The position numbers and the translations under genes were made by a program. Below, piece by piece: positions 9,506 to 24,179 of a stretch of DNA of 41,703 nt (its first letter is position 1; the number at the start of each line of letters is the position of its first letter). The stretch spans positions 1-41,703 of the forward strand of contig RFHM01000075.1 in the NCBI GenBank assembly GCA_003696865.1. Reading direction: 5' to 3'. This stretch comes from Acidobacteriota bacterium. GTDB taxonomy: Bacteria; Acidobacteriota; Blastocatellia; HR10; J050. The notes under the pieces are model-generated. The model worked only from the letters and a program-made list of their open reading frames with translations. It had not been told where the DNA came from and did not search any database.

Positions 9506-9882
9506 AATCAACTCCGTTTCTCGTCCATGGTAAACCAAACAGCGGTCTTCCTGCCAGCATATGGGGATCATCGGGCACGAGACCATGATGCCCGGATAGC
9601 GCCAACCGTTCAAGGGTGTTACGGGTGGGGTGAGCATGATCCACCTCCCTGCCGGGTTGTGCGCTCTCGTCTTATGAGGTTCCTTCCTCGCCGCCACCGA
9701 TCCCACATTTCCAAGTTGCACTGGTGGGATTGTTTTGGTCCCTCAAATCAGGCCAGAGACGAACCGTGTATTCGTTTCCGGACTTTGGCAATTCTTGCGA
9801 TTTGGGTAAAAATTGCCAGAGTCCAGTCCGCTGATAGACTTGGGATATAGGAGTCGGTTCATTCGATTTTCATTTCTGATTA

Positions 9883-13344: not shown

Positions 13345-15270
13345 TTAGGGGAGGGAAAACACGCCATTGTTGCCGCCAGCGTAGATCCGTCCTGTTGTAA
13401 CATCATGAGCCAGCGCGTTGACCCTGGTATCGCCCGGGAGGCCCGCGCTCATCGCCGTCCAGGTGCTCCCCCCATCGGTGGACGTGAATACTCCCCGGTC
13501 GGTGCCCACGAGAAGGCGGACGGGCGCACCGGGGAGGAGCAACAACGAATAGACCGTCAAATTCGTCAGACCGGCGTTGGCGCTTTGCCAATTCAGACCT
13601 CCATCGGTGCTTTTGTAGACGCCGTTCCGCTCCGTCCCCGCGTAGATGGTGCTCGCATCCGTCGGATCGATGAGAAGCGCCCTGATGGTCGTGTGGTCCG
13701 GCAGCCCCTGGTTGACCGTCTGCCAGGTGATGCCTTCATCGCTCGACATGAAGACGCCGTTCCGCTCCGTCCCCGCGTAGATGGTGCTCGGACTGGTGCT
13801 CGGTAGAGCGAGGGCGTAAACCGTGTTCTCGTTCAAACCCTGCATCGACCAGGTGGCTGCTCCATCGGTGGTTTTCCATATGCCGCGATCGCTGCCCGCA
13901 TACAGCGTATCGGGATGGGAGGGATCTATGGCCAGTGAATAAATGATCGCCGATCCGCGCGGCAATCCCTGGTCTGCTGGAAACCAACTATTGCCTCCGT
14001 CAGTGGTCTTGAAGATCGAGCCGCTGTTGCCACAATAAAGAACATGGGCATCGGTTGGATGCCTCACCAGCACATGGACGGGGGGATAGAAGATCCCCCG
14101 ATTGGTCATGGTCCAGGTTATGCCGCCGTCGGTGCTCTTGAAGATGCTCGGGCCATAGGTTCGAATACCGGCATAGATGGCACTGGTATCGGGATCGAGT
14201 ATCAGGGAGCTGACCTCATGACCCGTCAACCCAGCGTTGGATGCCACCCAACTCGCCGCTCCATCGGTGGATGTGTAGAGGCCGTATTGGAAGAGTCCCG
14301 CGTACACGGTGTGAGTGGTGGAATCCACCGCCAGCGCATGGACCATGGCACCGAACGGGAGTCCCTGATTTTCCTCCGTCCAGGTTTGACCTCCATCCGT
14401 CGTCTTGAAGACGCCGTTGCCTTGTGTGCCCAAATAGACGATATCAGGATGCCTGGGATCGATGGCCAATCGGAAAGCCTGAGTCGAGCCACCGTCGCCA
14501 GCCAGCGTCCAACGCGCTCCTCCATCGGTCGTTTTGAAGACACCCTGGGAGTTGGTGGCGGCATAGAGGGTGTTGGGTCGGGTCGGATCGAGGACGAGGT
14601 CCCAGACGAACAGATCTCCTAATCCTGTTAAGACTGGCGTCCAGTTCGCTCCGCTATCAGTACTTTTGTAAACGCCACCCTCTGTCGTCGCCGCATAAAT
14701 GATATTGGGAGATACGGGATTGAGGACCAGCGCCGACACGAACTTCGTTCCCAACCCGGACGAAGCATCGGCCCAGGTGGCTCCGCCATCGGTGCTCTTG
14801 AACACGCCGCCCCAGGCGCCGGCGTAGAGAGTGCTGGGGTTGGCCGAATTGACCGCCAAGGCCGTCAAGTAGGTTCTGGTCAATCCCTCATTGCTCAGCG
14901 TCCAGGTCGCGCCCCCGTCCGTGCTGAGGTAAAACCCCTGGGCGGTTGTTGCGTAGATATGATCGGTGGTCTGGGAATCGATGATGATCTCGCTGTAGAT
15001 CGTGGGCTTGGCCAGGCCCGTTTTATTCCAGCTCGCGCCGGCATCCGTGCTCTTGAAAATGGCCACGCCCTCAGCACCGACGTAGAGCGTGCTGGCGTCA
15101 GTTGGGTCAATGGCGATAGCCTCAATGTAACCTCCGTAGGGGCCGAGCGCCGTCCACATCGGTGATCCCGTTTGACCCGACGTTTGGGGCGAGGAAAGAG
15201 CGAGAGCAATGGCCATGACCATCGCTCGGACAAGGCCATTATGGCCGCGGAATGGCGATGCATCTTTCAT
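13345..15270 (-). CDS. Secreted BNR/Asp-box repeat beta-propeller protein (sortilin/GH74/Ycf48-like)
   Basis: About 13 S/TxDxGxxW Asp-boxes (STDAGASW, STDGGATW, STDSGANW, TTDGGARW, TTDGGQTW ...). Signal-like N-terminus. Start at 15270 after GGGAGGTGACGAATATC. Confidence 0.8.
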   Translation of the reverse strand: MKDASPFRGHNGLVRAMVMAIALALSSPQTSGQTGSPMWTALGPYGGYIEAIAIDPTDASTLYVGAEGVAIFKSTDAGASWNKTGLAKPTIYSEIIIDSQTTDHIYATTAQGFYLSTDGGATWTLSNEGLTRTYLTALAVNSANPSTLYAGAWGGVFKSTDGGATWADASSGLGTKFVSALVLNPVSPNIIYAATTEGGVYKSTDSGANWTPVLTGLGDLFVWDLVLDPTRPNTLYAATNSQGVFKTTDGGARWTLAGDGGSTQAFRLAIDPRHPDIVYLGTQGNGVFKTTDGGQTWTEENQGLPFGAMVHALAVDSTTHTVYAGLFQYGLYTSTDGAASWVASNAGLTGHEVSSLILDPDTSAIYAGIRTYGPSIFKSTDGGITWTMTNRGIFYPPVHVLVRHPTDAHVLYCGNSGSIFKTTDGGNSWFPADQGLPRGSAIIYSLAIDPSHPDTLYAGSDRGIWKTTDGAATWSMQGLNENTVYALALPSTSPSTIYAGTERNGVFMSSDEGITWQTVNQGLPDHTTIRALLIDPTDASTIYAGTERNGVYKSTDGGLNWQSANAGLTNLTVYSLLLLPGAPVRLLVGTDRGVFTSTDGGSTWTAMSAGLPGDTRVNALAHDVTTGRIYAGGNNGVFSLP

Positions 15271-15290
15271 GATATTCGTCACCTCCCGTG

Positions 15291-15322
15291 AAAATAAGAT
15301 GGCGCAAGTCGACAGCTTGCGC
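15291..15322 (-). terminator. Rho-independent terminator-like hairpin between the CARDB and BNR genes
   Basis: The minus strand reads GCGCAAG-CTGTCGA-CTTGCGC followed by CATCTTATTTT. A second hairpin, GTGGCC-N5-GGCCAC, lies just upstream. Confidence 0.4.
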
Positions 15323-15564
15323 TCCTTCATCTCCACTCGTTCGGTGTGGCCCGCGAGGCCACGGGTGACTCCTGTGATCATGAGTGGAGGAATGGGCAAA
15401 AGGGAGAATGGGGAAATAAGGGTGTATCTCCCACTGGCTCACCCATCCACTCTTCCACTGTGATCTGCGCCGGCATCTCCAGACTGTGGGGGGTCTCTTT
15501 CATGTTGGTCATCAACCACAGAACGCCCTCCCATCAGCCGACTAGAGTTCGCCGAATGGGCTCC

Positions 15565-16362
15565 TTAGCCAGGGATCGTTTCACAGGTTTTATTATTGGT
15601 TTCGTCTGACTCTCCCACCAGATTAGTTGCGTCGGCTGTGCCACATACGGTGCAATCGGGATCAAAGCAGTTCTGATTCTGTGTCACCGTGGTGGTGAGC
15701 ATCACTGAGTCCCCGGCGCCTAGAGCTGGCGTGGCCACATCGATTGGAACCCCATTATCCGTCTTGATGCGCGTCAGCGATGTTCCGGCGTTGGCGGATC
15801 CCATATTGGCCACCCTGAGTGTGATTCTCAGATTCAAAGATCCCGGAACGAACTCCACTTTGTCGATGGATCGAACGACCAGGTCGGGTCGATCGGCCGT
15901 GCGGCGTCGGGGAGAGATGCGCTCGATGTCGAGTGTTTCGACCGCACCGGTTGCACCGGCCGCCGTGTACACGGCTACCACATCTAATTCGACGTCGCTC
16001 TCGATAATGACGAATCCCTTGACGAAGTCGGCTCGAGCCGGTACTCGTTCAAAAATGTCCGAGCAATCAATTTCCAGTGCTTGATCCCCGCCCAGTCGAG
16101 CACCAAAAAACGGTGACACCGGGCCGGGCCGCTCGCCTGGTAGAGCAACGGCGAATTTCTTCAGGAAACTGATCGCTTTCTCGGTCGGGTTGTGGACATT
16201 AATCGCGGTGAAGTATTGCCCCGGCGCCACCACGTCGCCATCCGATTTTCCACAAACGAACTTGACCGCGTACTGCAGTGGGGCTTGTTGGGCCGTAGTG
16301 ACAGTGGGGACCGGAATCAGCGTCATGAGAAGAAATAAAGTGATTACAGCAAGTCTTGTCAT
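15565..16362 (-). CDS. Secreted protein with a C-terminal CARDB-like domain
   Basis: Signal peptide MTRLAVITLFLLMTLIPVPTVTTAQQ. The C-terminal PDLVVRSID...LRVANMGSANAGTSLTRI...LGAGDSVMLTTTV fits the CARDB pattern. I cannot name the N-terminal domain (YAVKFVCGK...YFTAINVHNP...VKGFVIIESDVELDVVAVYT). Start at 16362 after GAAAGGAGGAAC. Confidence 0.65.
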   Translation of the reverse strand: MTRLAVITLFLLMTLIPVPTVTTAQQAPLQYAVKFVCGKSDGDVVAPGQYFTAINVHNPTEKAISFLKKFAVALPGERPGPVSPFFGARLGGDQALEIDCSDIFERVPARADFVKGFVIIESDVELDVVAVYTAAGATGAVETLDIERISPRRRTADRPDLVVRSIDKVEFVPGSLNLRITLRVANMGSANAGTSLTRIKTDNGVPIDVATPALGAGDSVMLTTTVTQNQNCFDPDCTVCGTADATNLVGESDETNNKTCETIPG

Positions 16363-16830
16363 GAGAGAGTTCCTCCTTTCCGTTCCAATTCCGGGCTTAT
16401 ACGGCATCGTTTACCTGGCGCCACCTCTCCCGAGCACATGTTTTAGACATTGACTTCGGCAGTGTGCTTAATTGCCGGGATCCCCCGACGTCGAGGCTGG
16501 GTGCGCCAAGCCTGAGTCGGAGAGAATCATGACCCGCGCGATTCTGCAAATAGTTTTTCTCTTCGTCACTGATGGTCACAGATCCCCTCCTTGGCATTAG
16601 CATAGAAACACCAAACCGTCATTCATACAGGCAAGCTGCGTGCCACCCGAATGGCTGTTGCCCGCTTTCGGGTAAGTATCGGTGGTTCAGCAGATTGAGA
16701 GTATCATCCTGGAGAGTAGGGGGAGCGCGACCCGAAAGTGTTAGGGAATCTCGCCCAGCCATCGGGTTATTGGGCGCACTCGCCCACAGAGAACAGATTG
16801 TGGAAAGGTTCCCGCTCGTAAGGTCGATGC

Positions 16831-16990
16831 TTCCTCTCATCCGAAAATCACCACCGAGGCGCAGAGCACGCCGAGATCCTCCAACAGGCTCCTCTCATCC
16901 TCTCGGCGTGACTCCCTCGAAAATAGACGACGGACGACCGGTGCTTGATGTGGCTCGGGCGCGCCATGGGCGACTCCCTCGAAAATAAGG
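16831..16990. repeat. Copy B of the dispersed intergenic mosaic repeat (more degenerate)
   Basis: Contains gaaaatcaccaccgaggcgcagagcacgccgagatcctccaacaggctcctctcatcc, then gactccctcgaaaatagacgacggacgaccg, then gatgtggctcgggcgcgccatgggcgactccctcgaaaat. These modules are shared with 1-167 and 40321-40527. Confidence 0.75.
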
Positions 16991-17167
16991 ATGGCGCGAG
17001 TTGTCAACCTGCGCTATTTCGCTGTTCAGCCATCTCGTGATGTACGCGAGCACATGGGGACCTCAACAATCCTCCGGGAGCACCAGCACCCCGCCTTCCT
17101 CGCTCGTCTCTGAGAAACGGCCTGCCGGAGGCGTGCACCCCAGATCCCACCTCTCAGTCGTAGAGCG

Positions 17168-18355
17168 TCATTGCCCGATGGTGGTCGTTCCTCCCTCGGC
17201 GATGACTTTAACCCGTTTCGAGATGGTCAGCATCTCGGGATATGATCCGGCTTTGATCTTGATCCGGGCCCCATCCCAGGCGAGATTATTGGCTTCGCCT
17301 ACCGTGTTGAACGGTCTCCATGGTGTACCTCTCACATCCATATACGCTCTGAGCCCTTGGGAATCAAAAAACGGCCGGCCGTCGCGATGGACATAGATCG
17401 TGTGTGTGTAATGCTTCAAATAGATGGAATCGTCGGAATCGCTGAGCTCGTTGTCCAGCATGATCACGTGGAGTTGACCTCTGATATTCGGTGCCCGGCC
17501 ATCGTCTAAATCCCAGATGGTGATCCCCTCGGGTTCTTCATATTTGGGGAACCCAGGATGAAATTCGTAATTGAAATATCCAGAACCGCTTGTGGATCGT
17601 TGAAGCCTCTTACCAGTTGATAAATCGAAAACGTGTATACCATCGGCCACAATGTACAACAACTGTCCGCCTGGGGAGATCACTCCTCCTTGCACGTGTT
17701 GGAGTCTGATCTGGGAACCGGCTTCATCAAATAGGGGAACTGGAGGCGCTATTGACAGTATCAAATTCTGGCCGTTCCTCAACGCGTTCCAGTTGATGAG
17801 GTACTTGTTAACGGCTACAACATCGTCGTCGTTGGAACTGTACACGTTCCCTCGCGGATCAACGGCGACCCAGGGGGCGTGAGTTTGGACGGCGAACGTG
17901 GCGTGATCGACATATTGGAGCGTATCAGCCCTGAACACGGCCAGGCCCGGCGGGCCACCTTCGATGGGGATCAGGATGTAGCCTTGGCCGTCAAATGCGT
18001 AGTAACTGGGATCGCCGAAGTGGTCGTAGCCGGCGGTAGCAAGCTGAGGTATGTTCCTCAGCGAAACACGTTGAACGCCCGGAGCTGCGATAAGAAGGAA
18101 TGCGTCGAGATCCTGGTTGACCGGAACTTTCCATAACGCATCTCTTTGAGTGATGAACCAGTGACTATTGTCATGGGTCAATCCTTGAGCCTCTGCGTGC
18201 CATCCTGCGCGACCATTGACCGGGTATTCGCCGAGATAGAGATAGTACCCTTCATAGAGATCCTGGGCGATGTTCCTCGGTTGAAAGAGGATCAGAAAAA
18301 GGAGCGTGATGATGAGTCCTCTGCTGAGCACGCCTGTTTTCTTTCTCCTCTCCAT
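17168..18355 (-). CDS. Secreted hypothetical protein (probable beta-propeller-like body) with a 53-aa C-terminal module shared with the upstream protease
   Basis: Signal peptide MERRKKTGVLSRGLIITLLFLILF. RBS GGGAGGGAGAAGTC. I cannot assign the body to a family. The C-terminal GTPWRPFNTVGEANNLAWDGARIKIKAGSYPEMLTISKRVKVIAEGGTTTIGQ is shared. The start lies 31 nt after the protease stop. Confidence 0.7.
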   Translation of the reverse strand: MERRKKTGVLSRGLIITLLFLILFQPRNIAQDLYEGYYLYLGEYPVNGRAGWHAEAQGLTHDNSHWFITQRDALWKVPVNQDLDAFLLIAAPGVQRVSLRNIPQLATAGYDHFGDPSYYAFDGQGYILIPIEGGPPGLAVFRADTLQYVDHATFAVQTHAPWVAVDPRGNVYSSNDDDVVAVNKYLINWNALRNGQNLILSIAPPVPLFDEAGSQIRLQHVQGGVISPGGQLLYIVADGIHVFDLSTGKRLQRSTSGSGYFNYEFHPGFPKYEEPEGITIWDLDDGRAPNIRGQLHVIMLDNELSDSDDSIYLKHYTHTIYVHRDGRPFFDSQGLRAYMDVRGTPWRPFNTVGEANNLAWDGARIKIKAGSYPEMLTISKRVKVIAEGGTTTIGQ

Positions 18356-18386
18356 GACTTCTCCCTCCCATATGCGCGGTCATCGG

Positions 18387-20114
18387 TCACTGCCCGATGG
18401 TGACCGTTCCCCCGCTGGCCAATACGGTCAACCGTTTGGAAAGCGTCAGCGTTTCCGGATAGGACCCGGCCCGGATCTTGATGCGCGCGCCATTCCAGGC
18501 GAAATTGTGAGCCTCGGTGACGGTGTTGAATGGCTGGCTGGGCGTCCCGCGCTCGTCGCCGCTATAGCTGCCGTCTACGTGGATCGTGCCGCCAATTTCC
18601 AGCCACCGCTTGATGATCGGGAAGGTGGTCTCGAATTCCCCATACATGGTTGTGAATTCATCGGTGTTGCCGCAATCGAGAGTCTCTCCGGCGCAGGAGA
18701 GAGATGGACAGCACGAGCCAAAGAGCTGGCCGGCGAGTTGGCCGGCGCTGTTGAAGACGCCCGAGCCGCTCGATCCCGGCTCGATGACGCCGTTGTCGAT
18801 GTCATAGTAGTCGTAATCTGTGGGATCGCCGCAGCCGGCACAGCCGGGGCAGAAACCGACGTCGCTGAGGAACGTCACCCGCTTCCAACTGCCGCGAGGA
18901 TGATGAATGCCGTAGGCCGTATCCGGACTGTCGGTCGTCCATCCGGCCAACCCCACGCCACCGGGGATGCCAGTGAGGCGAATGAAGGTCATGTCGTTGC
19001 CCCCATCGGTGGGATTGGCCTCCAGCAGCGTGCCACCGGTCGTGCGCGGCAATGTGGCATAATTGGGGAGCGCCCCTCCACACGCGTTCCGTTGCCAGAA
19101 CCAGACGATTTCCAGACTCTTGACCGCCGCCTGGGTGTGAAGGCAATGGTAGGCGGTGAGGAAATAGGGCACCGCCGTCTCGTCATCCAGGTCGTTCAGC
19201 AGCGTCCCGGTGCAGACAAACGCCGAGCCGTCTTTCACGAAGTTCATCTGACCGGTGGCATCCCGCGCCGCTGGATGCACAGGGGGAGAGCCATAGCACA
19301 TGGGATCGAGATGACAGGGCAGTTGGGCAGCCTCAGTCTCCTCTTGGACCGGACCGGCTGGATTTTTGTCGAAATGGAGGATTTCGGGTATCTCCAGCCG
19401 GGGAGTCTCGGATCCGGATGCCTCGATGAACACCGTGTCGCCGAGCAGCGAGGCCGTCCAGAAGTCACCGCTCCCATCGGGTCCCTTTCCCGTGTAGGGA
19501 CCGCGCACGATCACATCATCCCTATCGCGAGCGTAGACCAGAACCGATCCCGCTCCCACATCGAAATGAGTGAAGCGAATGCGAATGCCAAAGGCCCCCG
19601 GAGAGCGGATGGCCAGCGTCCACACGTTGCCCCCGTCGGGGAGCGCGACGTGCAGGGCAGCGGTCTCGAACGACAAGGGCACAGTCCCCAGAGAGCGCAC
19701 CAGGCCTACGCGCCGCGGACCCGGATGCACATGAGCGTACTCTCTGGCGGCACGACGGTCCACAGCAGCAATCTGCTCCGCGCTCACCGGCCCCAAATCG
19801 TAAACGTTGAGTCCCTCGCGGAACGCCCCGGCCAGATGAAGACTCGCTGGTGTGGGAGCCTGTTTCTGAAGGGCTTGCGGTTCGCTCGGCGCCCGCTCGG
19901 GAAATGTTTCACGGATGACCTGTTGTCCCCAGGCGTTGATCACAAGAAGCAGAACGGCGACCGGGAGACTCAGCAGGTGGAATCGGCTGTGAGTTGTCGA
20001 TATCGTTCCTCGTGGTAGTGCTCGTGTATTCAGACCATTGGTCAGGAGCACTCGCGCTCGAATGAGGGCACTGGCAATATGGATGATGAGTGGTTGCTGC
20101 TTTCGCGCTTCCAT
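18387..20114 (-). CDS. Secreted trypsin-fold (S1 family, lysyl/glutamyl-endopeptidase-like) serine protease with the shared C-terminal module
   Basis: Catalytic His in VCTGTLLND...YFLTAYHC, Asp in GNDMTFIRL, Ser in EPGSSGSGVF. The N-terminal pro-region is typical of lysyl endopeptidase-like enzymes. Start at 20114 after AGGAGGAGTTGACT. C-terminal GTPSQPFNTVTEAHNFAWNGARIKIRAGSYPETLTLSKRLTVLASGGTVTIGQ. Confidence 0.8.
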   Translation of the reverse strand: MEARKQQPLIIHIASALIRARVLLTNGLNTRALPRGTISTTHSRFHLLSLPVAVLLLVINAWGQQVIRETFPERAPSEPQALQKQAPTPASLHLAGAFREGLNVYDLGPVSAEQIAAVDRRAAREYAHVHPGPRRVGLVRSLGTVPLSFETAALHVALPDGGNVWTLAIRSPGAFGIRIRFTHFDVGAGSVLVYARDRDDVIVRGPYTGKGPDGSGDFWTASLLGDTVFIEASGSETPRLEIPEILHFDKNPAGPVQEETEAAQLPCHLDPMCYGSPPVHPAARDATGQMNFVKDGSAFVCTGTLLNDLDDETAVPYFLTAYHCLHTQAAVKSLEIVWFWQRNACGGALPNYATLPRTTGGTLLEANPTDGGNDMTFIRLTGIPGGVGLAGWTTDSPDTAYGIHHPRGSWKRVTFLSDVGFCPGCAGCGDPTDYDYYDIDNGVIEPGSSGSGVFNSAGQLAGQLFGSCCPSLSCAGETLDCGNTDEFTTMYGEFETTFPIIKRWLEIGGTIHVDGSYSGDERGTPSQPFNTVTEAHNFAWNGARIKIRAGSYPETLTLSKRLTVLASGGTVTIGQ

Positions 20115-20213
20115 AGTCAACTCCTCCTGAAATCTCCGGGCAATCTTCAACCGCGCCAGGCAGATGTGGCCCACCTGTGAATGTGATGCCTGTTTACGCC
20201 CATTCCTGTCTGC

Positions 20214-21764
20214 TCACTGAAGCGCGACGAGAACGAGGATCAGTCCTCTGTCTCGCTTCAGCCCGGTCATGGCCTTGCCCAGGATAGCCCCTTGAGCCCG
20301 GGCGTGGTCGATCACTTTCATGGCGTGACCAGGCGTCTCAGACGTCGTCAACAGGTCGCCCGGTTCAATTGGGCCATAGGAGGCATCGGCCCAGCAGTAG
20401 ACGCGACCCGTCAGTGCCACTGAGTGAGTTCCGTCAGCCTTCGAGCCTTTTTGTCCCATGAGCATTCCCGGCTTCACTCCGCCAGCCCCACTGATGATAC
20501 CGGCGACTCTCCGGTCGTAGCTCTTATGGCTGACCACCAGATTTCCAGGGCTTTCCGGATCGATACTGACGACCATACCCGGCGCTGGGAGCACATCCTC
20601 CTCGCCTGGGTTAATTTCGAACGGCTCGGACAGGTCCGCTCCTCCGACGATCTCCAAGACCTTGACCATGACATGACCGTTCTCTTTTATGACAACGCCA
20701 TTTGTGCTTCCGGGCGGCGAAGCGGAATTACTCGCCGTCAAATGAATCCCTGTGGAGTCAAAAGTTATATCCCGCCTATGCCCGGCTGCCGGCTCAAACG
20801 TTATGATTCCGGGCCAACCTCCTGGTGTCGTGATGTAGAATTGCCCGTTTACGTCAAAGCGTGCGCGACCCGACACGTGGAGCTTTTCCTGGGGATTCGT
20901 CGTCCCGATGCCGACATTGCCGCTGACTTCTCTCACCGTCAGAGCATCGGGCGCAGCAAAGGCGCTGATGATCACACCGGTGCCGAACTCACCTCTGATA
21001 TTGTGAGCAGGGTGACCGAAAGATACTATGGCATCTTCTCCGGCCGCGTCGAAGCCTTGGGTCCCCCTCACAAAAATATTCCCCTCAACGTGCAATCGAG
21101 AACTCGGACTCGCCGTCCCGATCCCCACGTTGCCGGTGTTGGTGTTGTAGATGTGTGGGCCATTGGCCAACCAGAGATTCGCCTGCTCGGCGGTTGCGCG
21201 CTCCTCGCTCTCGTCCTTCATCACGTCTGCTTCTTTGAACAATGCGGCCTCGTCTCCGTCGCCCGCGAATCCCACTGGGACGCCGATCAAACTCCATGGC
21301 TCGTGTTGAGCGAAAATGGCGTAGGGGGTGGACGTCAGTCGCTGTCGAGGCGAGAGCGTCGCGTAAGGGGCGGCGCTACCACTCGGACGCACGGCCACCT
21401 CCAGCCAATGCTCAGAACTCCCGAGGGCGATGGGATCGAACTCACATTCGATGCCAAACAATCCGTCGATCACGTCGATTTGTTCGTAGAACGCGGAATC
21501 GAGCGCCTCACCCCCCGTCTGGGTGGTGTACAGGGTGAAGCGAAAGTCATAAAGGCCGTCGGCCGGCGTGCCGTCCTCTCGTAATTGTCCCTGATAAGCG
21601 AAACTCATCTGGCGGACGGCTCGATTCGAGTCTCTTCCATTCTGCAGCTTGATGGCCGAGCCTGTTTGGGGAAGTGCGGGTAAGATGACCAGCACAATCC
21701 AGGCCAGCAGAATGAGAGGCCTTCGTGGCCGGTAGAGATGAAAAACGTTAATCCTATTATTCAT
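20214..21764 (-). CDS. Secreted or anchored phage-tail-fibre-like protein
   Basis: N-terminal YQGQLREDGTPADGLYDFRFTLY...GLFGIECEF...WLEVAVRP...LSPRQRLTSTPYA module. Two GNVGIGT(A/T)xPxxxLHVxG motifs, common in tail-fibre-like proteins. The conserved-looking C-terminal region is ...VAGIISGAGG...VALTGRVYCWADASYGPIEPGDLLTTSETPGHAMK. Start at 21764 after GAGGAGGAATCCGACC. Confidence 0.6.
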   Translation of the reverse strand: MNNRINVFHLYRPRRPLILLAWIVLVILPALPQTGSAIKLQNGRDSNRAVRQMSFAYQGQLREDGTPADGLYDFRFTLYTTQTGGEALDSAFYEQIDVIDGLFGIECEFDPIALGSSEHWLEVAVRPSGSAAPYATLSPRQRLTSTPYAIFAQHEPWSLIGVPVGFAGDGDEAALFKEADVMKDESEERATAEQANLWLANGPHIYNTNTGNVGIGTASPSSRLHVEGNIFVRGTQGFDAAGEDAIVSFGHPAHNIRGEFGTGVIISAFAAPDALTVREVSGNVGIGTTNPQEKLHVSGRARFDVNGQFYITTPGGWPGIITFEPAAGHRRDITFDSTGIHLTASNSASPPGSTNGVVIKENGHVMVKVLEIVGGADLSEPFEINPGEEDVLPAPGMVVSIDPESPGNLVVSHKSYDRRVAGIISGAGGVKPGMLMGQKGSKADGTHSVALTGRVYCWADASYGPIEPGDLLTTSETPGHAMKVIDHARAQGAILGKAMTGLKRDRGLILVLVALQ

Positions 21765-22080
21765 GGTCGGATTCCTCCTCTCCCCGAGGTTGTCGATGTT
21801 TCGTCCCATCGCGGGCGATCCCGGTAGAAGCACCCATCAGATCGAGACAACCGCGACAGATGACATAATGATCGTCAACGCCCCTCTCCGTGTGTAATGT
21901 CCCGAGAATGATCCACTCCTGGAGGGTCGATTGGTCGATTCCCGTCGACTCAACGGCGGCCGCCAGCGTGATCATGTCGAGACGGCTTCCGCAGAGAGGG
22001 CAGGCGTTGACCTTTCGTCCCCAGCTTGTACGTATACGCCGGCGGTGATAGGTGATCATGATTTCCTTGGTCCGCCCCAT
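21757..22080 (-). CDS. Small Cys4 zinc-ribbon protein with an excisionase/MerR-like HTH segment, first gene of the operon
   Basis: CPLCGS ... ITLAAAVESTGIDQSTLQEWIILGTL ... VICRGC. Start at 22080 after GGAGGAACTCGGCC. Its 3' end overlaps the next start by 8 nt (ATGAATAA). Confidence 0.55.
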   Translation of the reverse strand: MGRTKEIMITYHRRRIRTSWGRKVNACPLCGSRLDMITLAAAVESTGIDQSTLQEWIILGTLHTERGVDDHYVICRGCLDLMGASTGIARDGTKHRQPRGEEESDHE

Positions 22081-22137
22081 GGCCGAGTTCCTCCTGGTGA
22101 GCTTTGAGTGAGACGACCCCAATATACGGAAAATGAT

Positions 22138-22193
22138 TGTGAAAGTCTTGAGGAAACCGTGATATAATCGTGAGGAATTTGTGAGAGCATATT
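22138..22193 (+). promoter_or_regulatory. Divergent control region: helically phased TGA(G/A)-core direct repeats and an extended -10 (TGATATAAT)
   Basis: TGA cores at 22140, 22149, 22160, 22171 and 22182 (spacings 9, 11, 11, 11), in tGTGAaag / tTGAGGAAAc / cGTGAtat / cGTGAGGAAt / tGTGAGag. TGnTATAAT at 22160-22168. The ATG of the regulator is at 22194. Confidence 0.45.
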
Positions 22194-24179
22194 ATGACGG
22201 GCGAGAGAGCGGTCATTTATCGGTTCGGAGAATTCGTCCTCGATGTGAGCGAGCGCCAGCTCAGACACGGTGAACAGGAGATCTACCTCCGACCGAAGAT
22301 CTTCGAAGCGCTCGTCTATCTCGTTGAGCGTGCGGGCCATATTATCGAGAAGAACGAACTCAAACACGCTCTCTGGCCCGACACCATTGTCACCGAAAGT
22401 GCCCTCACCCAGAGCATCAAAGAAATTCGCGAGGTGCTGAGGGATGACTTCCACCACCCGCACTACATCCAGACGATCCCTCGCGTGGGCTATAAGTTCA
22501 TCGCCGAGGTTGAAGATATCACCCCCAGCGAGATCACCGAGGAAGGAGAAATGGAGGACGAGTATGGCACCATCAGAATCCGGGTGGTGGAACGAGAGGA
22601 CGAGCAACAGAGAAGGGAACAGTGGGCGAATGGGCCGATGAATGAAGCGATGCTTCGCGCCCCTCCTTTCTCCGCTCACCCTTCTCTCCCACGTTCGGAT
22701 TGGTGGACGCGGAGGGGTCGCGCGATCTTCGCCGGCCTCGCCCTCCTCGTTTTGTTGGTAGCCGTCGGACTCCTTCTCCACGGCCGAAAGCGCCCCCCCA
22801 TCCGTTCCATCGCCGTCCTCCCGTTCACATACCTCGGAGTCGATGCCGACCGGGAATACTTTGCCGATGGCGTGACCGAGGCGCTCATCGCGGACTTGAG
22901 CAAATTGAGAACCCTGCGCGTGATTTCACGCACTTCGGTGATGCAGTATAAAGGGGCGCGCAAGACGCTGCCGGAGATTGCTCGGGAATTGGACGTAGAT
23001 GCCCTGGTGGAAGGATCGGTGCTGCGCTCGGGGTCGCGGGTCTGCATCACCGCCAGACTGATCCGCGCCCGTCGAGAAGAATTGATGTGGGCGGATAACT
23101 ATGAGCGCGACCTCAGCGACATCCTGACTCTGCAGCGGGATGTGTGCCGGGCTATCGCCCAGCAAATTCAGAAGCAGTTGGTGCCATCGAAAGAGACGAG
23201 TTCACCCGCGGTTTCGTCGATCAACCCGGCGGCCTACGAAGCCTATCTCAAAGGGCGTTACTACCTGAATAAGAGGACCGACGAAGGCTTCAGAAAGGGT
23301 ATCGAGTACTTCCAGCGGGCCATCGCCCGGGAACCGAATTATGCTCTCGCCTATGCCGGCCTGGCCGATTGTTACAATCTGCTCAATAACTATGATGTCA
23401 TGCTCCCGCGCGTGGCCGCTCCTCGAGCCAAGGCCGCGGCCAGACGGGCGTTGGATATCGATGACACGTTGGCGGACGCCTATGCTTCACTGGGATTCAC
23501 GCACACATTCTATGACTGGGAGTGGGAGAACGCTGAGCGAGCGTTTCGACGAGCCATCGCATTGAATCCAAGCTGTGCCCCGGCGCATCATTGGTACGGG
23601 TTATATCTGGCGGCGAAGGGGCGATTTGAAGAGGCTCGTGAAGAGCTCCATCAAGCTCGTGAACTCGATCCGCTCTCCCTCATCATCAATGCCAATATCG
23701 GATGGGTTCTTTACTTCGAACGTCGCTATGATCAGGCCATCGAAGCCTGTCAGAAGACGCTGGAGATGGATGCCCATTTCCTCTCGGCGCGCATCAAGCT
23801 GGCCTGGGCGTACGAGCAGAAGGGGATGTCTCGAGAGGCCATCGCGGAGTTTCGCCAGGTCCTCGCTCATGATGAGACTGATCCCAGCTTCTGGGCGCTC
23901 CTCGGTCATGCCTACGCTGTGGCGGGCCGGAAAACAGAGGCGATCCAAATGATCGGCGAAGCGAAAGACCGATCGGCGCGAAGGTATCTCTCGCCATACC
24001 TGATAGCCATCATCTATGCCGAGCTTGACGAGCGTGACCGCGCTCTGAAGTGGTTGGAGAAGGCTTATGAAGATCGAAGCGGGTGGCTGGTATGGCTGAA
24101 AGTGGACCCCAAACTGGACCGGTTGCGCGCAGATCCTGGATTCGTGGAGTTCCTCTCTCGTCTTGGACTCGACGAATGA
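22194..24179 (+). CDS. CadC/OmpR-type winged-helix transcriptional regulator with TM segment, TolB-N-like domain and TPR repeats
   Basis: N-terminal YRFGEFVLDVSERQLRHGEQEIYLRPKIFEALVYLVERAGHIIEKNEL...IPRVGYKF (Trans_reg_C). TM segment AIFAGLALLVLLVAVGLLL. SIAVLPFTYLG...EYFADGVTEALIADLSK. Multiple TPR-like repeats (AYAGLADCY, AYASLGFTH, AHHWYGLYL ...). Confidence 0.85.
   Translation: MTGERAVIYRFGEFVLDVSERQLRHGEQEIYLRPKIFEALVYLVERAGHIIEKNELKHALWPDTIVTESALTQSIKEIREVLRDDFHHPHYIQTIPRVGYKFIAEVEDITPSEITEEGEMEDEYGTIRIRVVEREDEQQRREQWANGPMNEAMLRAPPFSAHPSLPRSDWWTRRGRAIFAGLALLVLLVAVGLLLHGRKRPPIRSIAVLPFTYLGVDADREYFADGVTEALIADLSKLRTLRVISRTSVMQYKGARKTLPEIARELDVDALVEGSVLRSGSRVCITARLIRARREELMWADNYERDLSDILTLQRDVCRAIAQQIQKQLVPSKETSSPAVSSINPAAYEAYLKGRYYLNKRTDEGFRKGIEYFQRAIAREPNYALAYAGLADCYNLLNNYDVMLPRVAAPRAKAAARRALDIDDTLADAYASLGFTHTFYDWEWENAERAFRRAIALNPSCAPAHHWYGLYLAAKGRFEEAREELHQARELDPLSLIINANIGWVLYFERRYDQAIEACQKTLEMDAHFLSARIKLAWAYEQKGMSREAIAEFRQVLAHDETDPSFWALLGHAYAVAGRKTEAIQMIGEAKDRSARRYLSPYLIAIIYAELDERDRALKWLEKAYEDRSGWLVWLKVDPKLDRLRADPGFVEFLSRLGLDE

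What the first reader, a model, noticed from the sequence alone, without database searches (positions are those of the whole stretch)
17168..24179. Unusual secreted operon (Zn-ribbon/HTH - tail-fibre-like - S1 protease - propeller-like protein) divergent from a membrane CadC-type wHTH-TPR regulator
Four minus-strand genes are tightly linked, with an 8-nt overlap, a 99-nt gap and a 31-nt gap, and every one has a strong GGAGG-type RBS. They encode a 107-aa Cys4/HTH protein, a 516-aa protein with phage tail-fibre hallmarks (YQGxL...LYDFRFTLY N-module, two GNVGIGTxxPxxxLHVxG motifs), a lysyl-endopeptidase-like S1 protease, and a secreted protein I cannot assign to any family. The operon faces a one-component transmembrane regulator (wHTH-TM-TolB_N-like-TPR) across a 113-bp control region rich in phased repeats. 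I know of no described system with this composition. A tail-fibre-like binding protein plus a protease plus a propeller-like effector under a signal-sensing regulator would fit a surface or contact-dependent lytic or predatory module. That functional reading is speculation.
Basis: partly seen in the sequence, partly recalled or inferred. Interest (0 to 1): 0.75.

Follow-up and report, generated by a model that had tools for sequence, protein, structure and literature searches.

The report
Secreted fibre with tagged hydrolase partners
Three of the four flagged genes are one example of a widespread, undescribed bacterial gene module: a secreted phage-like fibre followed by secreted enzymes, mostly proteases, that all carry the same short tag, probably so they work on or with the fibre.

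Summary
The gene calls, junctions and ribosome-binding sites are as described. Genes B, C and D form a conserved unit.

- **B** is a secreted trimeric fibre, built like Bdellovibrio MAT fibres. It ends in a very conserved ~150-aa domain (B-CTD). I show B-CTD is a compact homologue of the phage phi29 gp12 autochaperone (Peptidase_G2), with the Asp/Glu cleavage-site motif invariant.
- **C** (lysyl-endopeptidase-like S1 protease) and **D** (beta-propeller of unknown activity) both end in a shared ~55-aa domain (sCTD). It resembles the N-terminal cap of a beta-helix.

Across public data:
- Of 36 metagenomic B-CTD loci with at least 3 kb downstream, 33 have an sCTD gene just downstream; the upstream control is 2/37.
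- D homologues sit beside a B-CTD fibre only when they carry sCTD: 23/29 against 0/28.
- sCTD tags proteases of at least six other families and EEP phosphoesterases.

Gene A and the CadC-like regulator are linked to the unit only in the close lineage.

Best reading: the fibre folds with the help of its autochaperone, and sCTD couples the enzymes to it. That coupling is inferred, not shown. I found no description of this pairing.

The parts
22194..24179 (+). Membrane one-component regulator: N-terminal OmpR/CadC-type winged helix, one hydrophobic segment (about residues 176-196), a TolB_N-like region and TPR repeats. Divergent from the operon. A lineage-specific neighbour, not part of the conserved module.
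   Evidence: Pfam Trans_reg_C 2e-14, many TPR families, TolB_N 0.019. NCBIfam CadC 2.9e-34 and HilA-family hits, all below the curated cut-offs. Found next to the module only in L015 (88% identity over the C-terminal half), with similar TolB_N/TPR proteins in L022 and L118.
22081..22193 (.). 113-bp divergent control region. It holds a 17-nt direct repeat (22146-22162 and 22168-22184, spaced 22 nt) and a sigma-70-like promoter for the regulator (22139-22168, + strand).
   Evidence: A two-copy repeat may be chance. Function is inferred only.
21757..22080 (-). Gene A: 107-aa cytoplasmic protein with two CxxC pairs (C27/C30, C75/C78). Its end overlaps the start of B by 8 nt. Possibly a small regulator. 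Not part of the conserved module.
   Evidence: Only a sub-threshold Prok-RING_4 hit. No NCBIfam hit. No meaningful PDB hit. Its only homologue in 170 loci is L015 (75% over residues 1-60).
20214..21764 (-). Gene B: secreted trimeric fibre protein. Layout is signal peptide, conserved N-terminal domain, GNVGIGT-type fibre repeats, then a C-terminal autochaperone domain.
21315..21605 (-). B N-terminal domain (residues ~54-150; YQGxL...LYDFRFTLY). It recurs at the N-terminus of B-type fibres and paralogous fibres in many loci. By analogy with MAT fibres it is probably the cell-proximal end.
   Evidence: tblastn hits to residues 54-150 in more than 30 loci, several copies per locus in L021, L099 and L124. 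The analogy is from PMC10769870. Homology to the MAT N-domain was not tested.
20868..21140 (-). Two GNVGIGTxxPxxxLHVxG fibre repeats (residues ~209-299), of the trimeric beta-helix type.
   Evidence: phmmer to Bd2133 8ond, E 8.7e-9, query residues 202-302. PHROG tail-fibre families 4e-7 to 7e-6.
20217..20684 (-). B-CTD: highly conserved C-terminal domain ending LVLVxLQ. A compact homologue of the phi29 gp12 D4 autochaperone (Peptidase_G2, tandem beta-tulip).
   Evidence: At least 4640 homologues at 60-70% identity, none with a Pfam domain. Always at the extreme C-terminus, 120/120. AF2 pLDDT 81. Foldseek PDB hits to capsid cement proteins and gp12 (3suc, 3gqh). BFVD hits down to 2e-10, including 'Preneck appendage protein barrel' at 8e-8. 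hhalign against an 11-sequence G2 alignment gives P 4.6e-4 over 123 colinear columns.
20625..20639 (-). Predicted autocleavage motif A376-D377-L-S-E380. Cleavage is predicted before D377. D and E are invariant in the family.
   Evidence: D49 and E52 of the query are invariant in 51/51 sequences. They align with S691|D692 and E695 of phi29 gp12. That this is the gp12 cleavage site is from memory of Xiang et al. 2009. Cleavage itself was not tested.
18387..20114 (-). Gene C: secreted lysyl-endopeptidase-like S1 serine protease with a long N-terminal pro-region and a C-terminal sCTD.
   Evidence: PDB lysyl endopeptidases 9omd 7.9e-17, 4nsy 2.9e-14, 1arb 7e-13. Trypsin_2 scores 25.4 bits, just under its cut-off of 27.6. 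Orthologues lie between fibre and propeller genes in L001 and L017.
18582..19319 (-). C catalytic domain (residues ~266-511). The TAYHC (His), DMTF (Asp) and GSSGSG (Ser) motifs are visible in the alignments.
   Evidence: alignments
18390..18554 (-). sCTD of C: the shared ~55-aa C-terminal domain (PFNTVxEAxNxAWxGARIKIxAGSYPExLTxSKRxxVxAxGGTxTIGQ).
   Evidence: local HMM hit, iE 1.4e-29. 70% identical to the sCTD of D.
17168..18355 (-). Gene D: secreted beta-propeller of unknown activity, a flexible linker, then sCTD.
   Evidence: AF2 pLDDT 91, pTM 0.88; residues 331-340 have low confidence (63). Foldseek finds only generic propellers; the best is papaya glutaminyl cyclase 2iwa, E 1.9e-8, TM 0.39/0.57. 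253 homologues, none annotated.
17399..18253 (-). D propeller core (residues ~35-320). Nearly invariant residues include H61, D62, E274, E276, H296 and H315.
17171..17332 (-). sCTD of D.
   Evidence: local HMM hit, iE 2.2e-29. Pfam Pel9A-like_beta_helix (weak) on homologue P0007.

Best explanation
B, C and D are one instance of a widespread cellular module: a secreted fibre plus enzymes that share a tag.

**Shown or strongly supported**
- B is exported by a signal peptide. It has a conserved N-terminal domain, phage/MAT-type trimeric fibre repeats and a C-terminal domain (B-CTD).
- B-CTD is a compact homologue of the phi29 gp12 D4 tandem beta-tulip autochaperone (Peptidase_G2). The Asp/Glu motif of the gp12 cleavage site is invariant.
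- C (a lysine-type S1 endopeptidase) and D (a beta-propeller) are also exported. Both end in the same ~55-aa domain (sCTD).
- Genes for sCTD proteins lie directly downstream of B-CTD fibre genes across many phyla. A given enzyme core is found next to such a fibre only when it carries sCTD.

**Inferred**
1. B-CTD nucleates trimerisation of the fibre and is probably cut off before D377.
2. sCTD is an autonomous targeting or docking module. It couples the co-expressed enzymes to the fibre, either to B-CTD or to the matured tip.
3. The cell therefore carries protease-armed fibres for attacking proteinaceous substrates or other cells at close range.
4. In this lineage the divergent CadC-like membrane regulator, and perhaps gene A, switch the operon on in response to an envelope or external signal.
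For: **Anatomy of the operon**
-.

**B as a fibre**
- Bd2133 8ond, E 8.7e-9, and PHROG tail-fibre hits.
- MAT architecture from PMC10769870.
- The N-terminal domain recurs in more than 30 loci.

**B-CTD as a G2 autochaperone homologue**
- Foldseek PDB: 8hdt_G 1.6e-3, 6qyy, 3suc 9e-3, 3gqh.
- BFVD: 60 hits at E <= 1e-3, best 2e-10, 'Preneck appendage protein barrel' 8e-8.
- Sub-threshold Pfam hits: Peptidase_G2 in 3/51 members, XM1_gp53_minor_capsid in 7/51.
- hhalign P 4.6e-4 over 123 colinear columns. It aligns D377/E380 with gp12 D692/E695 and also aligns the C-terminal strands.
- gp12 D4 is described as a tandem beta-tulip autochaperone in bioRxiv 10.1101/216911.

**Module conservation**
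- B-(C)-D synteny in six independent loci.
- 33 of 36 metagenomic B-CTD loci have an sCTD ORF within 3 kb downstream on the same strand. The upstream control is 2/37, and none lie on the opposite strand. Fisher p = 6e-15.
- 26 of the 36 sCTD ORFs start within -60..+300 nt of the fibre gene's stop.
- D with sCTD has a B-CTD gene upstream in 23/29 loci. D core without sCTD has one in 0/28. p = 1e-10.

**sCTD as an autonomous module**
- It is found on unrelated enzymes: Peptidase_C10, C11, astacin, trypsin, reprolysin-like, lysyl-endopeptidase-like and Exo_endo_phos.
- It is C-terminal in 128 of 149 hits but N-terminal in about 8.
- In D it is separated from the propeller by a low-confidence linker.

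**Cellular, not phage**
- One weak B-CTD hit in 2.9 million viral contigs.
- No phage genes in the window.
Against: - No physical interaction was tested.
- If B-CTD is cleaved and released like gp12 D4, docking onto it would not tether cargo to the mature fibre. The docking site, if there is one, is unknown.
- sCTDs within a locus are not generally each other's closest relatives: 11 of 66 rank first. So there is no clear co-adaptation signal.
- The G2 relationship does not reach Pfam's threshold. It rests on one targeted profile comparison plus fold similarity with modest TM-scores (0.4-0.6).
- Six of 29 sCTD-bearing D loci have no B-CTD gene within 7 kb upstream.
- The closest relative, L015, has lost B and C.
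- Some fibre genes lie on short contigs or in MAGs, so their origin and completeness are uncertain.
Confidence: 0.5

Rival explanations
1. Co-expression without docking. The fibre is an adhesin, and the sCTD proteins are freely secreted enzymes. Their tag binds something else: the substrate, a glycan, the producer's own envelope, or a secretion or retention factor. Linkage only reflects use in the same process, for example sticking to a protein-rich particle or prey and degrading it.
For: sCTD is related to the N-terminal cap of right-handed beta-helices, which are often glycan-binding or glycan-cleaving. Evidence: DUF1565 E 0.01, Pel9A-like weak, and repeated partial matches in giant proteins. 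There is no within-locus co-variation signal. Many secreted proteases, including lysyl endopeptidase precursors, carry C-terminal extension domains (general knowledge).
Against: This does not readily explain why the same propeller core sits next to a B-CTD fibre only when it carries sCTD (23/29 against 0/28). It also does not explain the near-obligate adjacency (33/36, of which 26 start within 300 nt of the fibre stop).
Confidence: 0.27
2. Maturation partners. The downstream proteins act on the fibre itself. Proteases would remove B-CTD or trim the fibre, and the others would modify it. sCTD would recruit them to their substrate only transiently.
For: Most of the tagged proteins are endopeptidases. 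They lie immediately downstream of the fibre gene.
Against: At least seven unrelated catalytic types occur, including EEP phosphoesterases and a propeller. That is hard to reconcile with one processing reaction. B-CTD already carries the invariant Asp/Glu autocleavage motif. Up to four different tagged proteins follow a single fibre gene (L039).
Confidence: 0.1
3. B-CTD is not removed but forms the distal knob of the fibre. The module would be a polymorphic effector-delivery device aimed at other cells, as the reader suggested (contact-dependent lysis or predation).
For: B-CTD is 60-70% identical across phyla, more than a folding aid would seem to need. The variety of hydrolase cargo resembles polymorphic toxin logic. 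Bdellovibrio uses similar fibres on prey (PMC10769870).
Against: No immunity-like genes were noticed next to the cargo, though this was not examined systematically. The carriers are mostly sediment or soil heterotroph lineages, not known predators. The conserved cleavage motif argues for removal of B-CTD.
Confidence: 0.1
4. Remnant of a prophage tail-fibre region with unrelated neighbouring genes.
For: PHROG tail-fibre hits. A phage-type autochaperone domain.
Against: The fibre, the protease and the propeller all have signal peptides. The 41.7-kb contig has no other phage genes. This B-CTD subfamily is essentially absent from 2.9 million viral contigs. The arrangement is conserved in cellular genomes of many phyla.
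Confidence: 0.03

Closest known systems
Bdellovibrio bacteriovorus MAT (mosaic adhesive trimer) fibres, e.g. Bd2133, Bd3182 (PMC10769870)
   Same: Cellular rather than phage-borne, Sec-exported, trimeric fibres. A conserved domain follows the signal peptide. They have GNVGIGT-type beta-helix repeats (sequence match to 8ond). A chaperone or tip domain sits at the C-terminus.
   Different: MATs end in an S74 (SDxxxK) chaperone or in variable tip domains. B ends in a G2-type domain. No shared-tag enzyme genes are reported next to MAT genes. Homology of the N-terminal domains was not tested. The carrier here is an Acidobacterium, not a known predator.
Phage phi29 gp12 pre-neck appendage, domain D4 (Peptidase_G2 intramolecular chaperone; PDB 3suc, 3gqh)
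   Same: An extreme C-terminal domain of a trimeric spike or fibre. Beta-tulip fold hits. Colinear profile alignment. Conserved xD-x-x-E motif at the domain start and a hydrophobic C-terminal strand.
   Different: B-CTD lacks a ~60-residue insert found in the phage domains. It is below the Pfam threshold. It sits on a fibre rather than a pectate-lyase-like beta-helix spike. It is cellular, and far more conserved (60-70% across phyla).
Cohesin-dockerin enzyme display (cellulosomes), and T9SS C-terminal-domain cargo in Bacteroidota
   Same: The logic is the same: many unrelated secreted hydrolases share one small non-catalytic module that determines where they end up.
   Different: No sequence or fold relation. 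sCTD has no Por_Secre_tail or dockerin match. It can be N-terminal. It occurs in phyla without T9SS. Its partner is only inferred.
Achromobacter/Lysobacter lysyl endopeptidase (S1; PDB 1arb, 4nsy, 9omd)
   Same: The catalytic domain of C aligns over ~220-245 residues, and the His, Asp and Ser motifs are visible. It has a pre-pro organisation with a C-terminal extension.
   Different: Low overall identity. The C-terminal extension here is sCTD. The gene is embedded between fibre and propeller genes.
CadC/ToxR-like membrane one-component regulators
   Same: N-terminal OmpR-type winged helix, a single membrane span and an extracytoplasmic sensor. Divergent from the genes it may control.
   Different: The sensor part is TolB_N-like plus TPR, not the CadC periplasmic domain. 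All NCBIfam equivalog scores are far below cut-off. Control of this operon is untested.

Membership tests
Peptidase_G2 / phi29 gp12 D4 intramolecular chaperone (for B-CTD) | Domain lies at the very C-terminus of a trimeric fibre or spike protein | tested here: met
   The B-CTD hit ends within 5 residues of the C-terminus in 120/120 homologues. In B it follows the fibre repeats.
Peptidase_G2 / phi29 gp12 D4 intramolecular chaperone (for B-CTD) | Match to Pfam PF11962 at the curated threshold | tested here: not met
   No hit for B at E <= 0.1. Only 3 of 51 family members hit it, best E 0.13.
Peptidase_G2 / phi29 gp12 D4 intramolecular chaperone (for B-CTD) | Profile-level homology to bona fide G2 domains over the whole domain | tested here: met
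   hhalign of the B-CTD profile against 11 phage G2 domains: P/E 4.6e-4, 123 aligned columns, colinear from the cleavage motif to the last strand. HH-suite probability is only 33%.
Peptidase_G2 / phi29 gp12 D4 intramolecular chaperone (for B-CTD) | Conserved Asp and Glu (D692, E695 in gp12) at the cleavage site | tested here: met
   D377 and E380 of B are invariant in 51/51. The equivalent D and E are invariant in 11/11 phage sequences, and the two pairs align with each other.
Peptidase_G2 / phi29 gp12 D4 intramolecular chaperone (for B-CTD) | Tandem beta-tulip fold | tested here: inconclusive
   Foldseek finds beta-tulip proteins (capsid cement/decoration proteins, gp8.5 base) and gp12 (3suc, 3gqh) at E 1.6e-3 to 5e-2, TM 0.33-0.64. 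BFVD 'Preneck appendage protein barrel' scores 8e-8. The model pLDDT is 81 with two disordered loops. Topology was not inspected.
Peptidase_G2 / phi29 gp12 D4 intramolecular chaperone (for B-CTD) | Autoproteolytic release after trimerisation | not testable with these tools
   Needs expression of B(329-516) and D377N/E380Q mutants.
Bdellovibrio MAT fibre family (for B) | Signal peptide followed by the family's conserved ~130-aa beta-rich N-terminal domain | tested here: inconclusive
   B has a signal peptide and a recurrent N-terminal domain (residues 54-150). No MAT N-domain sequence was available to compare.
Bdellovibrio MAT fibre family (for B) | Trimeric beta-helix fibre repeats | tested here: met
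   phmmer to 8ond (Bd2133) E 8.7e-9, and to 8ol4 and 8ojn.
Bdellovibrio MAT fibre family (for B) | C-terminal S74 chaperone (SDxxxK) or one of the described tip domains | tested here: not met
   No Peptidase_S74 hit. The C-terminus is G2-like instead.
Phage tail fibre within a prophage | Neighbouring phage structural genes, and occurrence of the same protein in viral genomes | tested here: not met
   No phage genes among 25 window ORFs scanned. One weak hit in 2.9 million viral contigs.
S1 lysyl endopeptidase (for C) | Chymotrypsin-fold catalytic domain with the His/Asp/Ser triad | tested here: met
   9omd 7.9e-17, 4nsy, 1arb. The alignments show the TAYHC, DMTF and GSSGSG motifs. Pfam Trypsin_2 scores 25.4 bits, just below its 27.6 cut-off.
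S1 lysyl endopeptidase (for C) | Lys specificity | not tested
   Specificity-pocket residues were not analysed. Needs enzymology.
CadC/ToxR-like one-component regulator | N-terminal OmpR-type wHTH, single TM, extracytoplasmic sensor | tested here: met
   Trans_reg_C 2e-14 at residues 28-102. A hydrophobic stretch at ~176-196 was read from the translation. TolB_N-like and TPR regions follow it.
CadC/ToxR-like one-component regulator | CadC-type periplasmic domain / equivalog score | tested here: not met
   CadC NF007540 scores 118.8 bits against a cut-off of 400. HilA/EilA scores 139.8 against 589.
T9SS C-terminal sorting domain (for sCTD) | Por_Secre_tail-type CTD, strictly C-terminal, in T9SS-bearing phyla | tested here: not met
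   No Por_Secre_tail hit on C, D or 19 cargo representatives. About 8 N-terminal occurrences. Present in Planctomycetota, Acidobacteriota, Chloroflexota and others.
Right-handed beta-helix N-terminal cap (DUF1565 / Pel9A-like) (for sCTD) | PFxTIxxAxxxAxxGDxIxIxxGxY motif that opens a long beta-helix | tested here: inconclusive
   Weak hits only: DUF1565 E 0.01, Pel9A-like weak, LIC10774 0.067. The profile finds repeated partial matches in giant proteins. Here the motif is not followed by a beta-helix; the protein ends.

The most novel reading that the evidence does not exclude
B-CTD fibres and sCTD-tagged enzymes form a previously unrecognised, phylum-spanning enzyme-display or delivery system. 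A phage-derived trimeric fibre would serve as the scaffold, and a ~55-aa 'half beta-helix' tag would serve as a universal dockerin. The tag loads interchangeable proteases, phosphoesterases and propeller proteins onto the fibre. In function this is a cohesin-dockerin or T9SS-CTD analogue, built from unrelated parts. It occurs in thousands of loci from Planctomycetota, Acidobacteriota, Bacteroidota, Chloroflexota, Desulfobacterota and others.
Probability: 0.35. Interest if true: 0.85.

Novelty: new variant of a known kind. Interest (0 to 1): 0.7.

Why it matters
**If the coupling is physical**
- It would be a new way for bacteria to hold degradative enzymes at a distance from the cell, on a phage-like fibre.
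- That bears on how abundant but poorly cultured sediment and soil lineages (Phycisphaerae, Acidobacteriota, Anaerolineae, Calditrichia and others) forage on protein or attack neighbours.
- It would supply a compact, portable tag-and-scaffold pair for protein display.

**Independent of the mechanism, this work defines two large unannotated families**
- B-CTD: at least 4640 clusters at 90% identity. It now has a phage G2 autochaperone ancestry and a predicted cleavage site.
- sCTD: about 5000 representative proteins match the profile.

These assignments allow thousands of 'hypothetical proteins' to be annotated. The work also extends the recent finding of MAT fibres in Bdellovibrio to non-predatory phyla, with a different chaperone type.

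Tried and rejected
- **Exact look-up of D** found no contig. The source was identified instead through the homology search: an NCBI Acidobacteria MAG, locus tag D6723_03650.
- **Pfam, NCBIfam and PHROGs on A, B and D** gave nothing usable beyond the tail-fibre repeats.
- **PDB sequence search with the B-CTD profile** gave only noise (ClfA, dynactin).
- **The search for homologous proteins with a 27-sequence sCTD alignment** returned nothing. This is probably because a 60-residue domain cannot reach E <= 1e-3 in 5.8 billion sequences after word filtering.
It was redone with window and P-protein substrings.
- **Scan of viral contigs with phi29 gp12 D4** found only phi29-like phages. The G2 alignment was therefore built from GenBank phages.
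- **Single-sequence tests of B-CTD against gp12** were weak (hmmsearch E 0.03; hhalign E 0.01). Only the profile-profile comparison was informative.
- **Test for concerted evolution of sCTDs within a locus** was inconclusive (11 of 66 best matches within the locus). A mirror-tree test was considered but rejected for lack of a phylogeny control.
- **Short 'stand-alone' B-CTD proteins** (146-157 aa) looked like truncated or split genes when their contexts were read.
- **Prophage remnant** was considered and rejected.
- **Contractile injection system tail fibre** was considered and rejected: no sheath, tube or baseplate genes in the window.
- **T9SS or sortase-type sorting signal** was considered and rejected.
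- **Rfam and tRNA scans** of the window were empty.

Full report
**Observation**

The window is the whole 41,703-bp contig of an NCBI 'Acidobacteria bacterium' MAG. Gene D is locus tag D6723_03650.

- A: 21757..22080, 107 aa.
- B: 20214..21764, 516 aa.
- C: 18387..20114, 575 aa.
- D: 17168..18355, 395 aa.
- Regulator: 22194..24179, 661 aa, on the plus strand. A to D are on the minus strand.

The 8-nt A/B overlap, the 99-nt and 31-nt gaps and the 113-bp divergent spacer follow from these coordinates. All four starts have GGAGG-type ribosome-binding sites. No terminator-like hairpin lies in the internal gaps, which is consistent with one transcript but does not prove it.

The 'phased repeats' reduce to one 17-nt direct repeat in two copies, 22 nt apart. 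A sigma-70-like promoter faces the regulator.

The rest of the contig is ordinary chromosomal DNA. It encodes an ECF sigma factor, a radical SAM protein, a PD40-GH114 protein, a BNR/sortilin-like protein, a CARDB protein, TrmO, VWA, HAMP and SLT proteins, an RND efflux system and cytochromes. There are no phage or injection-system genes, and no tRNA or Rfam hits.

**What the proteins are**

*Regulator.* It has an OmpR/CadC-type winged helix (Trans_reg_C 2e-14), a hydrophobic span, a weak TolB_N-like stretch and TPRs. All NCBIfam equivalog scores are far below cut-off.

*A.* It has two CxxC pairs. No profile or PDB match supports an HTH.

*C.* It aligns with lysyl endopeptidases (9omd 7.9e-17, 4nsy, 1arb), and the His, Asp and Ser motifs are visible.

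*D.* It has no Pfam, NCBIfam, PHROG or PDB sequence match. With a 56-sequence alignment AlphaFold gives pLDDT 91. The model is a beta-propeller, then a low-confidence linker (residues 331-340), then a small helix-plus-strands unit. Foldseek finds only generic propellers. The best is papaya glutaminyl cyclase at TM 0.39/0.57. Its activity stays unknown.

*B.* It matches Bdellovibrio fibre Bd2133 (8ond, 8.7e-9) and PHROG tail-fibre families, but only through the two GNVGIGT repeats. The Bdellovibrio MAT paper describes the same layout: signal peptide, conserved N-terminal domain, trimeric beta-helix, then an S74 chaperone or a tip domain (PMC10769870).

**Two conserved terminal domains**

Reading the translations, C and D end in the same ~55 residues (70% identical). 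I call this domain sCTD.

The last ~150 residues of B (B-CTD, ending LVLVxLQ) retrieved at least 4640 proteins at 60-70% identity. They come from many phyla, none has a Pfam domain, and all are 'hypothetical'. The domain sits at the extreme C-terminus in 120/120 of the listed proteins. The parts N-terminal to it vary in length and sequence.

**B-CTD is a phage-type autochaperone**

- The AlphaFold model (pLDDT 81) hits capsid cement and decoration proteins, the phi29 head-fibre base, and phi29 gp12 in its premature form and its C-terminal fragment (3suc, 3gqh), at E 1.6e-3 to 5e-2.
- Against predicted viral structures it gets 60 hits at E <= 1e-3, the best at 2e-10. They include 'Preneck appendage protein barrel' (8e-8) and tail or tail-fibre proteins.
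- These hits share the beta-tulip fold. gp12 domain D4 is a tandem beta-tulip 'autochaperone' needed for trimerisation (bioRxiv 10.1101/216911).
- Pfam shows only sub-threshold Peptidase_G2 and XM1_gp53 hits in a few members.
- I fetched phi29 gp12. Its D4 starts ...TGGNTW-S691-D692-F-A-E695-YFE, against ...VGG-A376-D377-L-S-E380-PFE in B.
- I built an 11-sequence alignment of G2 domains from Bacillus, Staphylococcus, Cobetia and cyanophage genomes. hhalign against the B-CTD profile gave P 4.6e-4 over 123 colinear columns.
- That alignment pairs the D..E motif, VAGIISGAGG with iGViSeTAG, VALTGRVYCWAD with VGLiGQi.VRiD, and the last hydrophobic strand.
- D and E are invariant in both families. 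That gp12 is cleaved between S691 and D692 is from my memory of Xiang et al. 2009. I could not retrieve the paper.

I conclude that B-CTD is a compact, divergent cellular branch of the G2 autochaperone. Cleavage before D377 is a prediction.

The subfamily is essentially absent from viruses: one weak hit in 2.9 million viral contigs.

**Conservation of the arrangement**

Contexts of six D homologues all show a protein with B-CTD upstream on the same strand. It is either adjacent or separated by one gene.
- In L001 that intervening gene is a C orthologue: B, C and D are 54%, 55% and 55% identical to the window proteins.
- L017 (Planctomycetales) also has B, then a C-like protease, then D.

A scan of one genome per species found D relatives in 80 loci. 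They come from Planctomycetota, Acidobacteriota, Bacteroidota, Chloroflexota, Nitrospirota, Actinomycetota, Cyanobacteria and others. Single MAGs labelled Euryarchaeota and Paceibacteria also appear.

I applied local HMMs to these loci:
- D with sCTD has a B-CTD gene within 7 kb upstream in 23 of 29 loci that have enough sequence.
- D core without sCTD has one in 0 of 28 (Fisher p = 1e-10).

The converse test used 80 metagenomic loci picked only for B-CTD. Of 36 with at least 3 kb downstream:
- 33 have an sCTD-encoding ORF on the same strand within 3 kb.
- 26 of those ORFs start within -60..+300 nt of the fibre stop.
- The same span upstream gives 2 of 37, and the opposite strand gives none (p = 6e-15).

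D is only one of many partners; it appeared in 1 of those 36 loci.

**What carries sCTD**

Clustering the 89 non-D sCTD proteins gave 36 groups. Pfam on representatives and reading of motifs show:
- Peptidase_C10 (10 loci).
- Astacin (8 loci).
- Trypsin (7 loci).
- Lysyl-endopeptidase-like S1 (6 loci, including C).
- Reprolysin-like (6 loci).
- Clostripain C11.
- Exo_endo_phos (3 loci, plus one weak match).
- Matrixin-like HExxH (weak).
- The largest group (16 loci): an HExxH family with no Pfam match.
- Several proteins with no match at all.

Up to four tagged genes follow one fibre gene (L039). The domain is C-terminal in 128 of 149 hits. In about eight it lies just after the signal peptide instead.

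A profile made from window and D-family sCTDs finds 5261 of 1.84 billion representative proteins at E <= 1e-3. The top scorers are giant proteins with 3-10 partial repeats. The single full-length matches sit at the ends of 380-560-aa proteins.

Weak DUF1565, Pel9A-like and LIC10774 hits also occur. Together these say that sCTD derives from the N-terminal cap and first turns of right-handed beta-helices, here used as a free-standing tag.

**What is not conserved**

Gene A and the regulator are found with the module only in L015, a Blastocatellia MAG. There the regulator's C-terminal half (88% identical), the first 60 residues of A (75%) and a frameshifted D (about 71%) remain, but B and C are gone. 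This is a decayed copy.

TolB_N/TPR proteins related to the regulator lie next to the module in L022 and L118. Other loci have CHAT-TPR proteins (L001, L002, L007), a hybrid kinase-AraC protein (L004) or a BTAD protein (L006). Regulation therefore looks locally improvised.

**Mechanism**

*Shown:*
- B, C and D are exported, judged from the signal peptides read in the translations.
- B is a fibre with a G2-type C-terminal domain.
- sCTD is the feature that predicts linkage to such fibres.

*Inferred:*
- B-CTD drives trimerisation and is cleaved off.
- sCTD targets the enzymes to the fibre, giving hydrolase-armed fibres.

Four points favour physical coupling:
- The conditional co-occurrence: the same propeller core, with or without the tag.
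- The tight adjacency of the genes.
- The position-independence and flexible linker of sCTD.
- The unusually high conservation of B-CTD.

Three points count against it:
- There is no interaction evidence.
- A cleaved chaperone would not be a stable anchor.
- sCTDs within a locus are not generally each other's closest relatives. In this window, though, the sCTDs of C and D are each other's second-best match out of 136.

Rivals:
- Co-expression with sCTD binding something else.
- Fibre maturation by the partner proteins.
- An effector-delivery device with B-CTD retained as a knob.
- A prophage remnant. The evidence essentially excludes this one.

**Comparison and novelty**

The parts belong to known kinds: MAT or phage-like fibres, the G2 autochaperone, an S1 protease and a CadC-like regulator. 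The following appear to be undescribed:
- The cellular G2-type fibre family.
- The sCTD tag.
- Their near-obligate pairing across phyla.

I found no description of them in Pfam, NCBIfam or PHROGs, or in the literature searches I could run. Those searches were few and keyword-limited.

I rate this a new variant of a known kind. There is a substantial chance that it is a new class of enzyme display or delivery.

Noticed in passing
L015:8872-11103 (Blastocatellia MAG JALSQX010000036.1): The closest relative of this locus is decayed. It keeps the regulator's C-terminal half (88% identical), the first 60 aa of A (75%) and a D gene split over three frames. The fibre gene B and protease gene C are missing.
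   Followed up: partly
window 16408-17167: A 760-nt stretch downstream of D has no convincing ORF, no Rfam or tRNA hit and no predicted terminator. This is unusually long for this otherwise tightly packed contig.
   Followed up: partly
L001:1-2727, L002:1-3628, L007:4120-4494: Three unrelated module loci have a large CHAT-TPR protein (caspase-like) upstream. In L001 and L002 a conserved pair of unannotated 192-aa and 322-aa genes lies between it and the fibre gene.
   Followed up: no
D-family homologues P0074, P0077, P0080, P0090, P0113, P0118: D-core homologues without sCTD carry other C-terminal domains instead: beta/gamma-crystallin with Inhibitor_I36, Kre9_KNH, or CarboxypepD_reg. The propeller core seems to be a cassette combined with different targeting domains.
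   Followed up: partly
proteins P0241-P0262 and similar: The best scorers for the sCTD profile are giant proteins of 2,000-7,000 aa with 3-10 partial matches each. They probably have repeated beta-helix-cap modules. They were not examined.
   Followed up: no
L026:2-1606: The end of a B-CTD (…GLVLVLVNLQ) runs on without a stop codon, through 10 codons, into the signal peptide of the next tagged metalloprotease gene. This is either a sequencing error or a read-through fusion.
   Followed up: no
L049 (Euryarchaeota archaeon ADurb.BinA087) and L068 (Candidatus Paceibacteria MAG): The fibre-propeller module appears in an archaeal MAG and in a CPR MAG. Horizontal transfer or binning contamination cannot be told apart here.
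   Followed up: no
L021, L099, L124: Several paralogous fibre genes sharing B's N-terminal domain (three to five copies) lie in one locus. Only some end in B-CTD. This suggests fibre-tip diversification like that of Bdellovibrio MATs.
   Followed up: no
window 7619-9721, 13345-15399, 15565-16407: Other predicted secreted or surface proteins cluster on the same strand downstream of D: a PD40-GH114 fusion, a BNR/sortilin-like 684-aa protein and a CARDB-domain protein. None carries sCTD.
   Followed up: partly
L170:6001-6474 and L171:3934-7893: Very short 'stand-alone' B-CTD proteins (146-157 aa) seem to be truncated or split fibre genes. In L171 one is still followed by a clostripain-family protease, whose sCTD was not checked. 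In L170 one sits beside an inserted methyltransferase gene and has no partner.
   Followed up: partly
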